Positions 2,558 to 16,162 of a DNA stretch of 20,812 nucleotides are shown here, one piece after another. The translations under genes and the position numbers were made by a program. The first letter of the stretch is position 1. The number at the start of each line of letters is the position of its first letter. The stretch comes from Candidatus Magasanikbacteria bacterium CG10_big_fil_rev_8_21_14_0_10_36_16. GTDB lineage: Bacteria; Patescibacteriota; Patescibacteriia; Magasanikbacterales; UBA922. The stretch covers positions 1 to 20,812 of the forward strand of contig PFBU01000025.1 of assembly GCA_002773185.1 (NCBI GenBank). Reading direction: 5' to 3'. The notes under the pieces were generated by a model, which saw nothing but the letters and a program-made list of their open reading frames with translations, did not search any database and had not been told where the DNA came from.

Positions 2558-2775
2558 CACACCGCATAATTTTTATGTATTTTTTGCTCTAAAGAGCAAT
2601 ATTATTTATCCCGCCCAAGGCGGGCGAGTAGCTAGATTACAACATTTCGTTGTGGTATAAAGTACTTGCTATTCCACGGTTTTAAGTGGAAAAGTTTATT
2701 AAAATATTCAAGGTCGCTGGACACAAATCTAACTGGGCCATCCCATGTTAGAGCGGCCAAAGCTACCATAGTAAT

Positions 2776-4386: not shown

Positions 4387-4461
4387 TATCTGTTCATAAA
4401 AGTTGTTCATATAGTACTTTAAAAATGTTATCAGGTTGGGGATATATCAGGAGTATTATCC

Positions 4462-4490
4462 TTGACATTTTGTTTTGTTTGCGTTAAACT
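4462..4490 (+). promoter_or_regulatory. Promoter-like element inside the rpsJ-rplC spacer (TTGACA-17 nt-TAAACT)
   Basis: TTGACA at 4462-4467, 17-nt spacer, TAAACT at 4485-4490, about 335 nt upstream of rplC. Confidence 0.4.
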
Positions 4491-4826
4491 AGTCACGTTA
4501 CTAATTTATACATTATTTAGACACATTACAACTTGTTTCAAAACAGATAAGATCTAGAGCTAAATAAAGCTTAAGAAAACATCTGAAAGTAGAAAAAGTT
4601 GTTTAGGTGGAGGTTTTCATTACATATCAATTAATCGCCTTACAACCAGTTTTTGGTCTTGAAGGCTAGAGATGATTAAAACAAACAATTGTTTGTGGTA
4701 TTCATTTCTAGTTTTTTTATTACGAAAAAAGGTGTGTTACTAAAGTCGTCTATATTGTCCCTGATAATAGATATTCAGTCACATGGAAACGACCAGTCGA
4801 AATAGCACCTTCTCGCAATTTATATT

Positions 4827-8061: not shown

Positions 8062-8544
8062 ATGAAAGTACAAACAAAAGCACAATTAAGATTTTTACGA
8101 ATAACTCCTCAAAAGGTAAGATTGGTGGCTGGTTTGGTTCGTGGTATGGAAGTGAGAAAAGCTTTGGATCAATTACAATTTAGTAGTAAACAAGCAGCTA
8201 TTCCTGTCAAGAAATTGATTGAATCAGCTGTAGCCAATGCTATTCACAATGATCACGTCAAAGAAGATACTTTGAAGATTGAAACTATTTTTGTCAATGA
8301 AGGTTCAGTATTGCGTCGTTGGATGCCAAGAGCTATGGGTAGAGCAACTCCTTTGCGTAAAAAGAGTTCTCATATTACTGTTGTCTTGACGGGTGAAGCT
8401 GATGAAACAAAAAAAGAAGTAAAATCCGCCAAAGGCGGATCCGTCTTTGACGGAAAAGAATCATTATCCGTTAAAGGTTCAACTGATAAAGAAAAAGTTG
8501 TTGAAAAAAATAAAAAAGAAGTTACTAAAAAAACTAAAAAATAA
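8062..8544 (+). CDS. rplV: 50S ribosomal protein L22 with about 45-aa K/E-rich C-terminal tail
   Basis: LRITPQKVRLVAGLVRGMEVRKALDQLQFS...RATPLRKKSSHITVVL is the L22 core. The tail starts near TGEADETKKEVKSAKGGSVFDGKE. Confidence 0.96.
   Translation: MKVQTKAQLRFLRITPQKVRLVAGLVRGMEVRKALDQLQFSSKQAAIPVKKLIESAVANAIHNDHVKEDTLKIETIFVNEGSVLRRWMPRAMGRATPLRKKSSHITVVLTGEADETKKEVKSAKGGSVFDGKESLSVKGSTDKEKVVEKNKKEVTKKTKK
8422..8460 (+). repeat. GC-rich double-hairpin module, copy 1 (inside the L22 tail)
   Basis: ATCCGCC-AAA-GGCGGAT (8424-8440, 7-bp stem) is followed immediately by TCCGTC-TTT-GACGGA (8440-8454, 6-bp stem). By hand alignment, 33 of 39 nt are identical to 13858-13896. Confidence 0.8.
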
Positions 8545-9920: not shown

Positions 9921-10175
9921 ATGTCCGATACTAAAAAAACACAACATAGAAATTTTGAAGGCGAAGTAGTTAGTGTTGCTGAAAACAAGACTATTCATGT
10001 TATTGTCAAAACTACCAAAATGCATCCAAAATATCGTAAGCAATATGTTGTTAGTAGAAAGTTTGCTGTACATGATGAACATTCTCGTGCAAAATTGGGT
10101 AATTTGGTTACTTTTGTAGAATGTCGTCCTATTAGTAAAACTAAAAAATGGACATTAGTAAACATTATTAAATAA
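9921..10175 (+). CDS. rpsQ: 30S ribosomal protein S17
   Basis: FEGEVVSVAENKTIHVIVKTTKMHPKYRKQY...VTFVECRPISKTKKW matches S17. Confidence 0.96.
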   Translation: MSDTKKTQHRNFEGEVVSVAENKTIHVIVKTTKMHPKYRKQYVVSRKFAVHDEHSRAKLGNLVTFVECRPISKTKKWTLVNIIK

Positions 10176-10193
10176 AACAAATTGAAGTATTAG

Positions 10194-10261
10194 ACATTCG
10201 AATTACGAATACTTGCGAATCTACGAATTCGAAAATTCGGAAGCATTCGTAATTCGAATGT
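10194..10261 (+). repeat. Perfect 17-bp inverted repeat forming a 68-nt hairpin in the rpsQ-rplN spacer, packed with CGAAT/ATTCG words
   Basis: ACATTCGAATTACGAAT (10194-10210) is the exact reverse complement of ATTCGTAATTCGAATGT (10245-10261). The inner hairpin is CGAATT-CGAA-AATTCG (10224-10239). Confidence 0.85.
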
Positions 10262-10294
10262 AAAGCAATAAAAACACTTTAATATAATTTCAGT

Positions 10295-13308: not shown

Positions 13309-13998
13309 ATGTCAAAACCTCAAGGTAACAACAATAAAAGACAAAAACCTAGAAAAGAAAAACCAGAGTTTGATCAAGCTATTGTAGATTTAGCGCGTGT
13401 TACTCGTGTTACAAAAGGTGGAAAACATCTTAGTTTTCGTGCTCTAGTTTTGATTGGTGACCGTAAAGGTAAAGTTGGCTATGGTGTTGAAAAAGGTGCT
13501 GATGTTCAAATTGCTGTTGATAAAGCTGTTAGACAAGCTCAAAAAAATATGATTTTTGTTCCTTTTGATAAGAAAACTATTCCTCATCGTGTGGAAGCTA
13601 AATTCAAAGCTGGCAAAGTAATGATCAAACCAGCCCCTCAAGGCTCTGGTATTATTGCTGGAAGTTCTATTCGTACTGTGCTTGAACTTGCTGGTGTACC
13701 AAATGCTTCTGCTAAAATGCTTGGAAAATCAAACAACAAAATTTCTAATGTCAAAGCTACTTTTGCTGCCTTGAGTTCTTTCAAACGTGAAGCTATTGAA
13801 AAATCAAGAAAATCTAGAGAAAGAGTAGAAAAAAATAAAGTACAACAAATTGAAGTAAAATCCACTCAAGGCGGATCCGTCTTGAGCGGAAAAGAATTAG
13901 ACTCTGCTAAAGTTTCAGCTGACAAAAAAGAAGTTGTTGAAAAAAAAGTTGCTAAAAACGACTCTAATCCGTCATTTGTCGGATCAGAAAAAAAATAA
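13309..13998 (+). CDS. rpsE: 30S ribosomal protein S5 with about 65-aa K/E/S-rich C-terminal tail
   Basis: ARVTRVTKGGKHLSFRALVLIGDRKGKVGYG...GSGIIAGSSIRTVLELAGV is the S5 core. The ATG at 13309 is preferred over the in-frame TTG at 13303 given in the ORF track. Confidence 0.95.
   Translation: MSKPQGNNNKRQKPRKEKPEFDQAIVDLARVTRVTKGGKHLSFRALVLIGDRKGKVGYGVEKGADVQIAVDKAVRQAQKNMIFVPFDKKTIPHRVEAKFKAGKVMIKPAPQGSGIIAGSSIRTVLELAGVPNASAKMLGKSNNKISNVKATFAALSSFKREAIEKSRKSRERVEKNKVQQIEVKSTQGGSVLSGKELDSAKVSADKKEVVEKKVAKNDSNPSFVGSEKK
13858..13896 (+). repeat. GC-rich hairpin module, copy 2 (inside the S5 tail), with a degenerate third core copy at 13967-13984
   Basis: AAATCCACTCAAGGCGGATCCGTCTTGAGCGGAAAAGAA aligns to 8422-8460 in the same reading frame (KSTQGGSVLSGKE vs KSAKGGSVFDGKE). 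ATCCGTCATTTGTCGGAT at 13967-13984 repeats the core in a different frame. Confidence 0.8.
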
Positions 13999-14448: not shown

Positions 14449-14541
14449 AATATCAACTTGATATAAAATTCTAAGTGCTTTATATTTATTTATAGAGAAA
14501 TAGCCTTTTTTATCTGATTACACCATTAAGAGCACTTTACA

Positions 14542-14745
14542 ATTCACCTAATTTCTAATTACTAATTTCTAATAAAATTCTTAATTTGATAATAATAAAC
14601 TTTTAGAATTTTATTTGCAGATTTGTATGTAACTTGGGAAATTAAATTTAATCTTTGATTTTTAGGGAACAATTGGTTTGTGGAGTATTTGATTAGAAAT
14701 TAAAAATTAGTTGAATTAGAAATTTAAATTTGAAAGTGGGTGAAT
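14542..14745 (+). repeat. Long-range inverted repeats in the 357-nt rplO-secY spacer
   Basis: ATTCACC (14542-14548) pairs with GGTGAAT (14739-14745). AATTTCTAAT occurs twice (14550-14559, 14564-14573) opposite ATTAGAAATT twice (14692-14701, 14715-14724). A separate 7-bp stem joins AAGTGCT 14473-14479 and AGCACTT 14531-14537. Confidence 0.7.
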
Positions 14746-14805
14746 AACATGTTTGTTTTGGACTTTCTTTCACTTAAAATTAAACATTCTTTATCTTAAA
14801 ATATT

Positions 14806-16077: not shown

Positions 16078-16140
16078 GTATTGATTCCACCCTAGGCGGA
16101 CAAGTTAGACAGACATTACACTTAAAATTTATATCAAAAC

Positions 16141-16162
16141 AATCCTCCAAAGAGGGTTTTTT
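16141..16162 (+). terminator. Weak rho-independent terminator after secY
   Basis: AATCCTC-CAAA-GAGGGTT forms a stem of about 7 bp including one G-U, followed by TTTTTT. Confidence 0.5.

What the first reader, a model, noticed from the sequence alone, without database searches (positions are those of the whole stretch)
8422..8544. The same GC-rich double-hairpin DNA module forms part of the C-terminal tails of two different ribosomal proteins (L22 and S5)
L22 (8422-8460) and S5 (13858-13896) share a 39-nt segment that is 33/39 identical by my hand alignment. It is read in the same frame in both (KSAKGGSVFDGKE vs KSTQGGSVLSGKE). About 60 nt of further similarity follows (S.K.S.DK..VVEK). In L22 the segment folds into two adjacent perfect hairpins, ATCCGCC-AAA-GGCGGAT and TCCGTC-TTT-GACGGA, and these are strikingly GC-rich for this genome. 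A third, degenerate core copy (ATCCGTCATTTGTCGGAT, 13967-13984) lies at the very end of rpsE in a different reading frame, which argues for selection or spread at the DNA/RNA level rather than the protein level. Related TCC-nCC-nAA-GGCGG hairpins occur non-coding at 2610-2624 (tuf leader) and 16086-16100 (just after secY). The closest precedent I know is the Rickettsia palindromic elements, which insert in-frame into genes. Here the element would be extending universally conserved r-proteins.
Basis: partly seen in the sequence, partly recalled or inferred. Interest (0 to 1): 0.7.

Follow-up and report, generated by a model that had tools for sequence, protein, structure and literature searches.

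The report
In-frame 30-nt palindromic repeat element
Two ribosomal protein genes of an uncultivated Magasanikbacteria (CPR) bacterium carry decayed copies of a 30-base double-hairpin DNA element that I could not find described, and that sits in frame inside many unrelated genes of uncultivated bacteria.

Summary
The core is a diverged member of a dispersed family with consensus TCCGCC-AAA-GGCGGA-TCCGCC-TCN-GGCGGA: 30 nt, two GC hairpins, and a near-palindrome around GGATCC.

Of the 101 sites in long ORFs, about 88% are read as S-A-K-G-G-S-A-S-G-G. Hosts include AlaRS, GyrB, UvrB/C, MutL, the CCA-adding enzyme and ribosomal proteins L23, S19, S3 and L4. Nothing is conserved beyond about 3 nt of flank.

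A covariance model built only from those metagenome copies scores the L22 copy at 53 bits (E 4e-13) and the S5 copy at 33 bits (E 1e-7).

The further ~56 nt of L22/S5 similarity is unique to this genome. I read it as a local segmental duplication between the two K/E-rich tails. It has since drifted neutrally (2 synonymous versus 12 nonsynonymous codon changes).

The nearest relatives lack the module in both genes. The "third copy" and the two non-coding hairpins are not significant members.

The mode of spread is unknown. I found no description in the literature I could search. I rate it a new variant of the RPE/REP kind.

The parts
8062..8544 (+). rplV (ribosomal protein L22), 160 aa. The core ends near residue 113; the K/E-rich C-terminal tail is encoded from about 8401.
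   Evidence: ORF and translation. Pfam Ribosomal_L22 on the identical protein. The last ~30 nt of the tail are conserved with L021 and L022.
8425..8454 (.). Element copy 1 (30-nt core): TCCGCC-AAA-GGCGGA-TCCGTC-TTT-GACGGA, read as S-A-K-G-G-S-V-F-D-G. It differs from the consensus by a compensated GTC/GAC pair in hairpin 2.
   Evidence: Family model R1 hit at 8421-8458, 53 bits, E 4e-13. Two perfect hairpins, -17.1 kcal/mol, z -4.1.
8411..8510 (+). Tail segment of rplV that is duplicated in rpsE. It comprises the element core plus about 56 nt downstream.
   Evidence: the repeat finder family D1, 100 nt at 81%. Flank-only BLAST with the core masked: winL22 versus winS5, 56 nt at 80%, E 3.5e-9. 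No similarity to the flanks of 124 other element sites.
13309..13998 (+). rpsE (ribosomal protein S5), 229 aa, with a K/E-rich C-terminal tail.
   Evidence: ORF and translation. Pfam Ribosomal_S5 and S5_C.
13861..13890 (.). Element copy 2 (30-nt core), more decayed: TCCACT-CAA-GGCGGA-TCCGTC-TTG-AGCGGA, read as S-T-Q-G-G-S-V-L-S-G. It folds as one long hairpin because the loops CAA and TTG are complementary.
   Evidence: R1 hit at 13857-13894, 32.9 bits, E 1e-7. MFE -18.3 kcal/mol, z -4.4.
13847..13946 (+). Tail segment of rpsE that is paralogous to 8411-8510.
   Evidence: The GAAGTAAAA just upstream is ancestral, being shared with the rpsE of L022.
13968..13983 (.). Single imperfect hairpin TCCGTC-ATTT-GTCGGA near the rpsE stop, read in another frame. 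It may be the relic of a half element; this is not established.
   Evidence: 5 of 6 pairs. R1 9.6 bits, E 0.19. Fold z -2.6. The region is absent from L021 and L022.
16086..16100 (.). Hairpin TCCACC-CTA-GGCGGA, 9 nt after the secY stop. It is one mismatch from a canonical half element but is not significant as an element.
   Evidence: R1 8.2 bits, E 0.43. Fold z -0.2. A similar hairpin lies about 30 nt after secY in L041.
2611..2625 (.). Hairpin CCCGCC-CAA-GGCGGG in the tuf leader, downstream of a strong promoter-like site at 2529-2557. It is a marginal, half-element-like match.
   Evidence: R1 hit at 2606-2644, 14.8 bits, E 0.0075. Fold z -2.3.

Best explanation
The GC-rich core shared by the L22 and S5 tails is a pair of decaying copies of a short dispersed DNA repeat. 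Its canonical form is a 30-nt near-palindrome, TCCGCC-AAA-GGCGGA-TCCGCC-TCN-GGCGGA. That is two 6-bp GC hairpins placed head to tail around a central GGATCC.

Shown. The family is scattered through many unrelated genes and spacers of uncultivated bacteria. Most hosts are CPR-like and some are not. The element adds a clean ~10-residue insertion to conserved proteins. With the commonest loops (AAA, TCT) its length of 3 x 10 nt and its lack of stop codons in all six frames mean it never breaks a reading frame. About 88% of coding copies are read in the phase that gives a flexible S-A-K-G-G-S-A-S-G-G linker. Copies concentrate at protein termini, in loops and in disordered tails, including ribosomal protein tails.

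Inferred. The element spreads as non-autonomous mobile DNA, using a trans-acting enzyme that recognises the hairpins. Selection then removes copies in disruptive phases or positions.

In this genome. One copy landed in the pre-existing K/E-rich tail of one ribosomal protein. A ~100-nt stretch of tail containing it was then copied into the tail of the other gene, 5.4 kb away in the same operon. Ectopic recombination or gene conversion seeded by A-rich microhomology such as GAAGTAAAA is the likely route (inferred). Both copies have since drifted without constraint at the protein or the stem level.
For: Family and membership.
- Those contigs hold 124 distinct sites. The left arm TCCGCC was not part of the pattern, yet it is present in 105 of 124. 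Nothing is conserved beyond about 3 nt of flank.
- Model R1, built from 117 of these copies, scores the window L22 copy at 53 bits (E 4e-13) and the S5 copy at 32.9 bits (E 1e-7).

Coding behaviour.
- 101 of 124 sites lie in ORFs of at least 100 aa. About 89 of those are in the SAxGGSAxGG phase, 66 forward and 23 reverse.
- Hosts by Pfam include AlaRS (two), UvrB, UvrC, MutL, GyrB, ArsA, CCA-adding enzyme (two), a class II aaRS, a ComM-like protein and a subtilase.
- AlaRS of L150 aligned to PDB 9jdn shows a 10-residue gap exactly at the element.
- S3 of L175 has an extra loop that 12 other S3 proteins lack.
- 26 of 101 sites lie in the first tenth of the ORF.

Ribosomal-protein hosts elsewhere: L23, S19, S3, L4 and L22.

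Lineage specificity.
- The nearest genomes, L021 and L022, lack the module in both genes.
- So do the S5 tails of the other ~35 related loci checked.
- Of the 120 nearest L22 clusters, only the window's own carry it.

Segmental duplication. With the core masked, the only non-orthologous flank similarity among 126 sites is winL22 versus winS5.

Neutral decay. 14 codons differ, 2 synonymously and 12 nonsynonymously. Differences by codon position are 7/5/6.

Dispersed repeat. There are 6 to 8 extra copies, beyond the sites that seeded retrieval, in 372 kb of element-bearing loci. Flanking 8-nt direct repeats are in excess, 10 of 123 against 0.55 expected.
Against: - No transposase or other mobilising gene was identified.
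- The copy number in this organism is unknown, because only about 28 kb of its genome is reachable.
- At four orthologous sites the stems are 94/96 identical, the loops 16/24, and the coding flanks 78-88%. That looks like purifying selection on the stems, or homogenisation between copies, rather than junk.
- Near-invariance of the stem sequence across hosts of 31-66% GC, including non-CPR hosts (L207; proteins with T9SS tails), is not how lineage-specific REP-like elements behave.
- The flanking direct repeats vary in length (8-14 nt) and are seen in only a minority of sites. They are not clean target-site duplications.
- L023 has a canonical copy at the same relative position in its L22 tail. 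An old insertion followed by many losses is therefore not excluded.
- The direction of the L22/S5 copying is unknown.
Confidence: 0.62

Rival explanations
1. The double hairpin is a host-functional nucleic-acid signal kept by selection, not selfish DNA. It could be a binding or processing site on DNA or mRNA for a protein these bacteria share, for example an mRNA stabiliser or processing site within operons, or a recombination or repair site. Coding copies would persist because the signal is needed there.
For: - Stems are 94/96 identical at four orthologous sites whose flanks are only 78-88% identical. The loops vary (16/24).
- The third position of the Ser codon in loop 2 drifts freely (TCT 34, TCC 29, TCG 17, TCA 10), while synonymous positions within the stems do not change.
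- GTC/GAC compensated variants occur in L184, L199 and the window L22 copy.
- About 5% of retrieved sites lie in S10-spc operons.
Against: - The positions share no logic. Copies lie at N-termini, in internal loops, at C-termini and in spacers, in both orientations.
- The nearest relatives of the window organism do without it.
- The two window copies drift neutrally, stems included.
- Density is low, about 1 per 50 kb even in element-bearing genomes.
- The strong bias in reading phase shows that the cost at the protein level shapes where copies survive. That is the pattern expected of an intruder.
Confidence: 0.2
2. The L22 and S5 tails each received an independent insertion of the element. No segment was copied from one tail to the other.
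For: - Both copies follow the same 9-mer, GAAGTAAAA. That 9-mer pre-exists in both tails of the relative L022, so it could be a preferred target.
- Elsewhere the element recurs at identical sites in diverged orthologues, for example AlaRS in L144 and L150.
Against: - The 56 nt downstream of the core are 80% identical between the two tails (E 3.5e-9). They occur at no other element site and not in the L021 or L022 tails.
- Both copies share the derived change TCCGTC in arm 3.
Confidence: 0.08
3. The shared tail is an old protein-level motif, or a convergence of low-complexity K/E/G/S-rich tails. It would be conserved because the peptide matters on the ribosome.
For: Both segments are read in the same frame, and both lie in r-protein tails, which are K/E-rich throughout this clade.
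Against: - Nucleotide identity (81%) exceeds amino-acid identity (19/31).
- There are 12 nonsynonymous against 2 synonymous codon differences.
- GC-rich codons are fixed in a 33% GC genome.
- The motif is absent from the tails of the other 118 of the 120 nearest L22 clusters and from about 35 related S5 genes.
- The same 30 nt occur in unrelated proteins and in non-coding DNA.
Confidence: 0.02
4. The element is an uptake-signal-like sequence, comparable to the DUS of Neisseria or the USS of Haemophilus. It would accumulate through biased DNA uptake and recombination in naturally competent CPR bacteria.
For: The core sequence is fixed whatever the coding context. It shows a phase bias, sits in permissive parts of proteins, and is shared across related and unrelated hosts. 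This resembles what is known of USS and DUS in coding DNA (my own knowledge).
Against: - Density is one to two orders of magnitude too low. There are 2 decayed copies in 20.8 kb here, 3 significant loci among about 27 CPR-like S10-spc loci, and about 1 per 50 kb in element-bearing loci.
- Copies appear as 30-nt insertions, not as point-mutational matches.
Confidence: 0.05
5. The module is an assembly, adaptor or chimera artefact.
For: The element is a perfect-looking palindrome with a BamHI site at its centre, which resembles a synthetic linker. One related contig, L220, is a chimera or recombinant.
Against: - The window sequence is identical in 20 contigs from different samples and different assemblies (JGI, and ENA contigs named k141_ and NODE_).
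- Copies are internal to contigs, in frame, and flanked on both sides by the same conserved gene.
- Orthologous copies differ in their loops.
- A copy is present in an NCBI MAG, L023.
Confidence: 0.01

Closest known systems
Rickettsia palindromic elements (RPEs)
   Same: Both are short palindromic repeats that invade coding as well as non-coding DNA and are tolerated in frame inside housekeeping genes (PMC1166351: 728 RPEs in R. felis, 85 within ORFs). In both cases the hosts have small, reduced genomes.
   Different: - RPEs are roughly 100-150 bp and confined to Rickettsia (my own knowledge). This core is 30 nt and occurs across many CPR-like and some non-CPR hosts.
- About 81% of these sites are in ORFs, against about 12% for RPEs in R. 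felis.
- I made no sequence comparison with RPE consensus sequences.
REP / REPIN elements mobilised by RAYT transposases
   Same: Both are GC-rich imperfect palindromes of 20-40 nt that form hairpins. A REPIN is a doublet of two REPs, loosely like the two hairpins here. Both are non-autonomous and dispersed.
   Different: - REPs are extragenic, species-specific, high in copy number, and carry a GTAG or CGTC tag at one end (PMC3733652).
- This element has no such tag (flank consensus tTT...AAa). It is mostly intragenic and modest in copy number. Its stem sequence is the same across very different hosts.
- No RAYT gene was identified.
GC clusters of yeast mitochondrial genomes (and the 'byp' elements derived from them)
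   Same: Both are short, GC-rich, palindromic mobile elements in AT-rich, compact genomes, and both can land inside protein-coding genes (PMC4478555 for GC clusters as mobile DNA; byps from my own knowledge).
   Different: These are organellar and eukaryotic. Byps are bypassed by the ribosome. Here the strong phase bias argues that the element is translated.
[quoted passage not shown]
   Same: The coding DNA has dyad symmetry, so that both strands encode a similar peptide. The distribution across distant microbes is punctate and suggests horizontal spread (PMC2996958).
   Different: PARCELs are 25-residue units in tandem arrays within ORFs that lack an assigned function, many with membrane-targeting sequences. 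Here single 10-residue insertions lie in housekeeping proteins and in spacers.
DNA uptake sequences (Neisseria DUS, Pasteurellaceae USS)
   Same: In both, a fixed nucleotide motif is kept in coding DNA with a preferred reading phase and in permissive protein regions (my own knowledge).
   Different: Uptake sequences occur about once per kb and arise mainly by point mutation and recombination. This element is one to two orders of magnitude sparser and appears as a discrete 30-nt insertion.

Membership tests
Dispersed 30-nt double-hairpin element (consensus TCCGCC-AAA-GGCGGA-TCCGCC-TCN-GGCGGA; defined here) | Significant score against a covariance model built only from independent (metagenome) copies | tested here: met
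   L22 copy 53 bits, E 4e-13. S5 copy 32.9 bits, E 1e-7. Canonical copies score 55-64 bits and degenerate ones 25-45 bits.
Dispersed 30-nt double-hairpin element (defined here) | Four 6-nt arms with 3-nt loops, 30 nt in all, central GGATCC | tested here: met
   L22 copy: 22 of 24 stem positions are canonical, and the two changes compensate each other. S5 copy: 19 of 24. Both have 3-nt loops and GGATCC.
Dispersed 30-nt double-hairpin element (defined here) | When coding, read in the S-A-x-G-G-S-A-x-G-G phase | tested here: met
   The window copies read SAKGGSVFDG and STQGGSVLSG. About 89 of 101 coding copies elsewhere use this phase.
Dispersed 30-nt double-hairpin element (defined here) | Membership of the three further hairpins (13968, 16086, 2611) | tested here: inconclusive
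   E = 0.19, 0.43 and 0.0075 against R1. They are half-element-like only.
Rickettsia palindromic elements | Length of about 100-150 bp with a palindromic fold over the whole unit | tested here: not met
   The conserved unit is 30 nt, with no conservation beyond about 3 nt. The 100-nt shared segment in the window is not palindromic beyond the core.
Rickettsia palindromic elements | In-frame residence in ORFs of housekeeping genes without disruption | tested here: met
Rickettsia palindromic elements | Sequence similarity to the RPE consensus families | not tested
REP / REPIN-RAYT | Conserved GTAG or CGTC tetranucleotide tag at one end (PMC3733652) | tested here: not met
   The flank consensus is tTT upstream and AAa downstream, with no such tag.
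REP / REPIN-RAYT | Extragenic location | tested here: not met
   101 of 124 sites lie in ORFs of at least 100 aa.
REP / REPIN-RAYT | A cognate RAYT (Y1/HUH transposase) gene in the same genome | not testable with these tools
   Only fragments of at most 14 kb of each host genome were retrievable. I made no genome-wide gene inventory.
DNA uptake sequences | Density of roughly one per kb in the genome | tested here: not met
   Two decayed copies in 20.8 kb. About 1 extra copy per 50 kb in element-bearing loci. Three of about 27 CPR-like S10-spc loci.
Intrinsic terminator | GC hairpin followed by a T-run on the transcribed strand | tested here: not met
   On the + strand the hairpins are followed by A-runs. 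The scan calls terminator-like sites only on the antisense strand, at 8442-8422 and 13989-13962.
CRISPR repeat | Regularly spaced array of repeats with unique spacers | tested here: not met
   Sites are solitary in nearly all loci. At most 2 or 3 scattered copies occur per locus.
Any Rfam family | Match at the gathering threshold | tested here: not met
   No hit in the window at gathering threshold. The only weak hit is sub-threshold, Ref84 at 29.5 bits against a threshold of 52. Nothing was found at the L023 copy.

The most novel reading that the evidence does not exclude
The element is not just tolerated junk. It would be a sequence-invariant 30-nt palindrome shared across bacterial phyla (CPR and non-CPR hosts, 31-66% GC), whose stems are kept under purifying selection even inside essential genes. 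On this reading it is the recognition site of a horizontally shared machinery that has not been described. That could be a new kind of hairpin-targeting mobile system that writes a fixed 30-nt unit into genomes and leaves 7-8-nt periodic target duplications. Or it could be a conserved DNA- or RNA-level signal that these reduced genomes need.
Probability: 0.2. Interest if true: 0.9.

Novelty: new variant of a known kind. Interest (0 to 1): 0.8.

Why it matters
If the family is real and undescribed, it would be a second clear case, after the Rickettsia RPEs, of palindromic DNA colonising protein-coding genes in frame. It differs from RPEs in three ways. The unit is far smaller. It is spread over much of the uncultivated bacterial world. 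Its sequence is almost invariant between hosts.

It also explains a recurring "SAKGGSASGGK" insertion that will otherwise be mistaken for protein features in CPR proteomes, alignments and structure predictions. It gives a simple DNA marker, namely a pattern and a covariance model, for tracing horizontal exchange among CPR and their neighbours. It also raises a testable question about which enzyme recognises the hairpins.

For this window the point is narrower. Ribosomal protein tails in CPR are evolutionarily plastic. They accept selfish DNA, and segments can be copied from one tail to another.

Tried and rejected
1. A protein search with the L22 tail alone found no candidates. A search with a 42-column profile of 67 element-bearing peptides gave 100 candidates, none scoring. 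Both outcomes reflect limits of the tool, not evidence. Two earlier attempts failed on parameters. As a result no full S5 homologue search was run. The S5 evidence rests on about 35 genome loci.
2. P0002/L220 looked like an "empty site" in a 99%-identical L22. At the nucleotide level it is identical to the window up to about nt 320 of rplV and identical to L022 after that. It is a recombinant or an assembly chimera at low coverage, and I discarded it.
3. I tested whether a larger composite element surrounds the core. There is no flank similarity among 126 sites except between orthologues and between the two window tails.
4. I compared the long-hairpin (cruciform) fold with the two-hairpin fold by covariation. 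The stems are almost invariant, so neither fold is supported beyond 2 compensated cells. Loop positions do not covary.
5. I looked for clean target-site duplications. There is an excess of flanking direct repeats and of period-7 structure, but lengths vary and only a minority of sites show them. The result is inconclusive.
6. I looked for presence in cultured or curated collections. There is no match in 7.3 Gb of plasmids, 2.3 Gb of GenBank phages or 28 Gb of E. coli genomes, and only 2 IMG/VR contigs match.
7. Rfam gave nothing. There are no tRNAs in the window.
8. Literature searches with the peptide, the DNA string and several keyword sets found only BamHI cloning primers and papers on other repeat families.
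Full report
**1. Context**

The window is an S10-spc ribosomal protein operon running tuf, S10, L3, L4, L23, L2, S19, L22, S3 ... L18, S5, L15, SecY, at about 33% GC. The exact L22 and S5 proteins occur on many metagenome contigs of at most 28 kb. The nearest labelled genomes are Candidatus Magasanikbacteria and other Patescibacteria MAGs: L021 at 86% and L022 at 83% identity in L5. The organism is therefore an uncultivated CPR bacterium.

**2.

- rplV is 8062-8544 and rpsE is 13309-13998.
- The 39-nt cores are 33/39 identical and are read in the same frame.
- The similarity extends without gaps over 100 nt at 81% (8411-8510 versus 13847-13946). This is the longest direct repeat in the window.
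- The tail-versus-tail local alignment scores 63, against 14.9 +/- 2.8 for resampled sequence.
- GGCGGATCCGTC occurs only at these two places.
- The L22 copy folds into two adjacent perfect hairpins (-17.1 kcal/mol, z -4.1).
- The S5 copy folds better as one long hairpin (-18.3 kcal/mol, z -4.4), because its loops CAA and TTG are complementary.
- All 20 independent strain contigs carry identical modules, so it is not an assembly accident.

**3. Relatives**

The nearest genomes, L021 and L022 (86% nucleotide identity in the rplV core), have K/E-rich tails of similar length in both genes but lack the GC-rich module. The last ~30 nt of the L22 tail are conserved. The GAAGTAAAA just upstream of the S5 copy is ancestral.

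Of the 120 nearest L22 clusters, only the window's own carry the motif.

A much more distant Magasanikbacteria genome, L023 (L22 core 53% identical), has TCCACC-AAA-GGCGGA-TCCGCC-TCT-GGCGGA at the same relative place in its L22 tail, but nothing in S5. That was the lead to a wider family.

An apparent "empty site" protein, P0002, proved to be a recombinant or a chimeric contig, and I discarded it.

**4. A dispersed family**

None of the 119 fetched contigs came from the window's own population, so the true number is higher. Those contigs hold 124 distinct sites, in hosts of 31-66% GC.

| Feature | Result |
|---|---|
| Consensus | tTT-TCCGCC-AAA-GGCGGA-TCCGCC-TCt-GGCGGA-AAa |
| Left arm (not in the search pattern) | TCCGCC in 105 of 124 |
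| Conservation beyond the core | none past about 3 nt |
| Flank similarity, core masked | only orthologue pairs and the two window tails |
| Loop 1 | AAA, GAA or CAA |
| Loop 2 | mostly TCN, third position varying freely |

Stems are nearly invariant, so covariation cannot decide between the two-hairpin fold and a single long hairpin. The compensated GTC/GAC variant of hairpin 2 recurs in L184, L199 and the window L22 copy.

**5. Behaviour in genes**

- 101 of 124 sites lie in ORFs of at least 100 aa.
- About 89 of these are read as S-A-x-G-G-S-A-x-G-G (66 forward, 23 reverse). About 9 read as PPKADPPxAE and about 3 as RQRRIRLWR.
- Hosts are unrelated housekeeping and other proteins. They are AlaRS (two), UvrB, UvrC, MutL, GyrB, ArsA, CCA-adding enzyme (two), a class II aaRS, a ComM-like ATPase, a radical-SAM/methyltransferase fusion, a subtilase and other proteins with T9SS-type tails, a solute-binding protein, a TraG-like protein, PMT_2 and ABC1.
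- Against solved AlaRS structures the element is a clean 10-residue gap: LEFF[S-AKGGSASGGN]SKGH versus LEFFR----------QRGH.
- In the S3 of L175 it is an extra loop that 12 other S3 proteins lack.
- At 30 nt the element never shifts the frame. With the commonest loops (AAA, TCT) it has no stop codon in any of the six frames (read from the sequence).
- Sites are enriched at N-termini, with 26 of 101 in the first tenth of the ORF. Several follow the ATG directly.
- Ribosomal proteins are repeated hosts. The sites are the L23 N-terminus (L112), the S19 C-tail (L136), the S3 C-tail (L174), inside S3 (L175), the L4 C-tail (L197) and the L22 tail (L023). One copy lies in the L15-secY spacer (L129).

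**6. Membership of the window copies**

A covariance model built from 117 metagenome copies, with no window sequence, gave these scores:

| Site | Bits | E-value |
|---|---|---|
| L22 copy | 53 | 4e-13 |
| S5 copy | 32.9 | 1e-7 |
| tuf-leader hairpin | 14.8 | 0.0075 |
| Hairpin near the rpsE stop | 9.6 | 0.19 |
| Hairpin after secY | 8.2 | 0.43 |

The last three are marginal or not significant. Canonical copies score 55-64 bits and degenerate ones 25-45 bits.

**7. Distribution**

- Among 80 labelled S10-spc loci (1.03 Mb), only the CPR-like loci L023, L033 and L042 have significant hits.
- Most element-bearing contigs that also carry r-protein genes are CPR-like. L207 has r-proteins closest to non-CPR references, and several hosts have T9SS sorting domains. 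The family therefore reaches beyond CPR (inference).
- In 372 kb of element-bearing loci there are 6 to 8 further copies beyond the seeds. That is roughly 1 per 50 kb, or tens per genome. The estimate is rough and biased.
- There is no match in curated plasmids, GenBank phages or E. coli genomes, and only two IMG/VR contigs match.
- Rfam has nothing.
- Full-text searches for the peptide, the DNA string and keywords found no description.

**8. What happened in this window**

The canonical unit is 30 nt, yet L22 and S5 also share 56 nt downstream of it at 80% identity (E 3.5e-9 with the core masked). That stretch is found at no other element site and not in relatives. Both copies also share the derived TCCGTC in arm 3.

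The simplest reading is one insertion into a pre-existing tail, followed by the copying of a ~100-nt tail segment into the other gene. Microhomology in the A-rich tail DNA probably seeded it, since GAAGTAAAA is present in both tails of L022.

Since then 14 codons have changed, 2 synonymously and 12 nonsynonymously, with differences spread evenly over codon positions (7/5/6). Amino-acid identity is 19/31 against 81% nucleotide identity. The stems of the two copies are no better conserved than their flanks. These are relics drifting neutrally, not a conserved peptide.

**9. Mechanism: shown and inferred**

Shown:
- A dispersed repeat conserved at the nucleotide level.
- Discrete 30-nt insertions.
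- A phase bias.
- A preference for permissive protein regions.
- Lineage-specific presence.

Inferred:
- Spread as non-autonomous mobile DNA through an enzyme that recognises hairpins.
- Selection filtering for the harmless Gly/Ser/Ala phase.

Hints about the mechanism:
- Flanking 8-nt direct repeats are in excess, 10 of 123 against 0.55 expected and a maximum of 4 in controls.
- Period-7 structure in the flanks is elevated, 0.320 against 0.266.
- Both signals are irregular and unexplained.

Against a purely selfish reading:
- At four orthologous sites the stems are 94/96 identical, the loops 16/24 and the flanks 78-88%.
- The stem sequence is the same across very different hosts.

I therefore keep a functional-signal rival at about 0.2.

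**10. Comparison with known systems**

- In behaviour the element is closest to the Rickettsia palindromic elements (PMC1166351). It is much shorter than RPEs and is not confined to one genus.
- It lacks the GTAG/CGTC tag and the extragenic habit of REPs (PMC3733652).
- It resembles yeast mitochondrial GC clusters (PMC4478555) and, in its dyad-symmetric coding, PARCELs (PMC2996958).
- It is far too sparse for an uptake sequence.

I file it as a new variant of the kind "short palindromic repeats that live in frame in genes", and not as a member of any named family.

**11. Verdict**

The element is real and RPE-like in behaviour. Its unit is 30 nt. The long L22/S5 similarity is a local duplication. 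Three of the five claimed copies are unproven, and mobility is inferred. Interest is high, because the window led to a widespread element that I could not find described.

Noticed in passing
L223:201-782, L224:201-698, L225:201-677 (L22 genes of other Magasanikbacteria; proteins P0075, P0016, P0006, also P0005, P0018, P0019): A second recurrent motif, S-A-S-A-K-A-T-A-D-K, occurs in L22 tails. It is encoded by another GC-rich hairpin, TCCGCy...AAA...GCGGA (-10 to -12.5 kcal/mol). P0075 has two copies. It may be a related or a second in-frame hairpin family.
   Followed up: partly
L220 (ENA contig NODE_47894, 1.7 kb, coverage 2.5): This contig is nucleotide-identical to the window up to about nt 320 of rplV and identical to L022 from there on. 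It is either a natural recombinant between two co-occurring Magasanikbacteria or an assembly chimera.
   Followed up: partly
L160:6082-6119 versus L178 (orthologous gene, about 88% identical): The element sits at the same site, but the loops are AAA/TCG in one and AGA/TTT in the other (SAKGGSASGG versus SARGGSAFGG). That looks like an in-place flip of the palindrome plus one substitution, or else three loop substitutions. The stems are untouched.
   Followed up: partly
Flanks of element sites, e.g. L139:2947-2984, L110:4127-4164, L113:695-732, L158:910-947, L106:172-209: A minority of copies sit inside short tandem arrays of locus-specific 7-8-nt units (CTAATTT, CAGAAGT, TAAATGT ...), or between 8-14-nt direct repeats. 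Both are in significant excess over controls. I have no explanation.
   Followed up: partly
window 14449-14805 (L15-secY spacer, 357 nt): This spacer is unusually long. It holds CTAATTT/CTAATTA heptamer runs (14545-14575) and inverted counterparts (14684-14710). They resemble the heptamer flanks of element copies in L139, L164 and L207. In L129 a canonical element lies in this same spacer.
   Followed up: no
window 10167-10288 (S17-L14 spacer): A 122-nt imperfect palindrome (61-nt arms, 72% complementary) built from ACGAAT/ATTCG-type units lies inside the r-protein operon.
   Followed up: no
window 4387-4826 (S10-L3 spacer, 440 nt): This is a very long gap inside the S10 operon. It contains a promoter-like site, TTGACA-17-TAAACT, at 4462-4490. 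Its content is uncharacterised.
   Followed up: no
window 16086-16100; L041:11567-11581: A TCCACC-NNN-GGCGGA hairpin lies 9 nt (window) and about 30 nt (L041) after the secY stop in two CPR loci. In the window it comes before the terminator-like hairpin at 16141-16158. It is not significant as an element and may be a conserved 3' structure.
   Followed up: partly
window 8442-8422 and 13989-13962 (minus strand): The consensus scan calls terminator-like sites on the antisense strand at the L22 element and at the hairpin near the rpsE stop, because the hairpins are followed there by T-runs. They could stop antisense transcription. This was not tested.
   Followed up: no
L207:9229-9243 and L207:10112-10126: In a non-CPR contig, two solitary half hairpins TCCGCC-TCA-GGCGGA lie in r-protein operon spacers. 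They share about 35 nt of upstream flank (CCTCGCTTTGCTCGG..AATTAAAAATTCA). This looks like a different, larger intergenic repeat that uses the same hairpin.
   Followed up: no
Element sites at N-termini, e.g. L142:33-70 and 774-811, L161, L211, L128: Many copies lie 5-12 codons after the start codon, and several follow ATG directly (M-S-A-K-G-G-S...). A hairpin that folds at -24 kcal/mol (36-nt consensus) at that position should affect translation initiation.
   Followed up: no
window 8418-8506 (minus strand): A sub-threshold Rfam match to Enterococcus sRNA Ref84 (29.5 bits against a gathering score of 52, E 0.045). Nothing comparable is found at the L023 copy, so I treat it as chance.
   Followed up: yes
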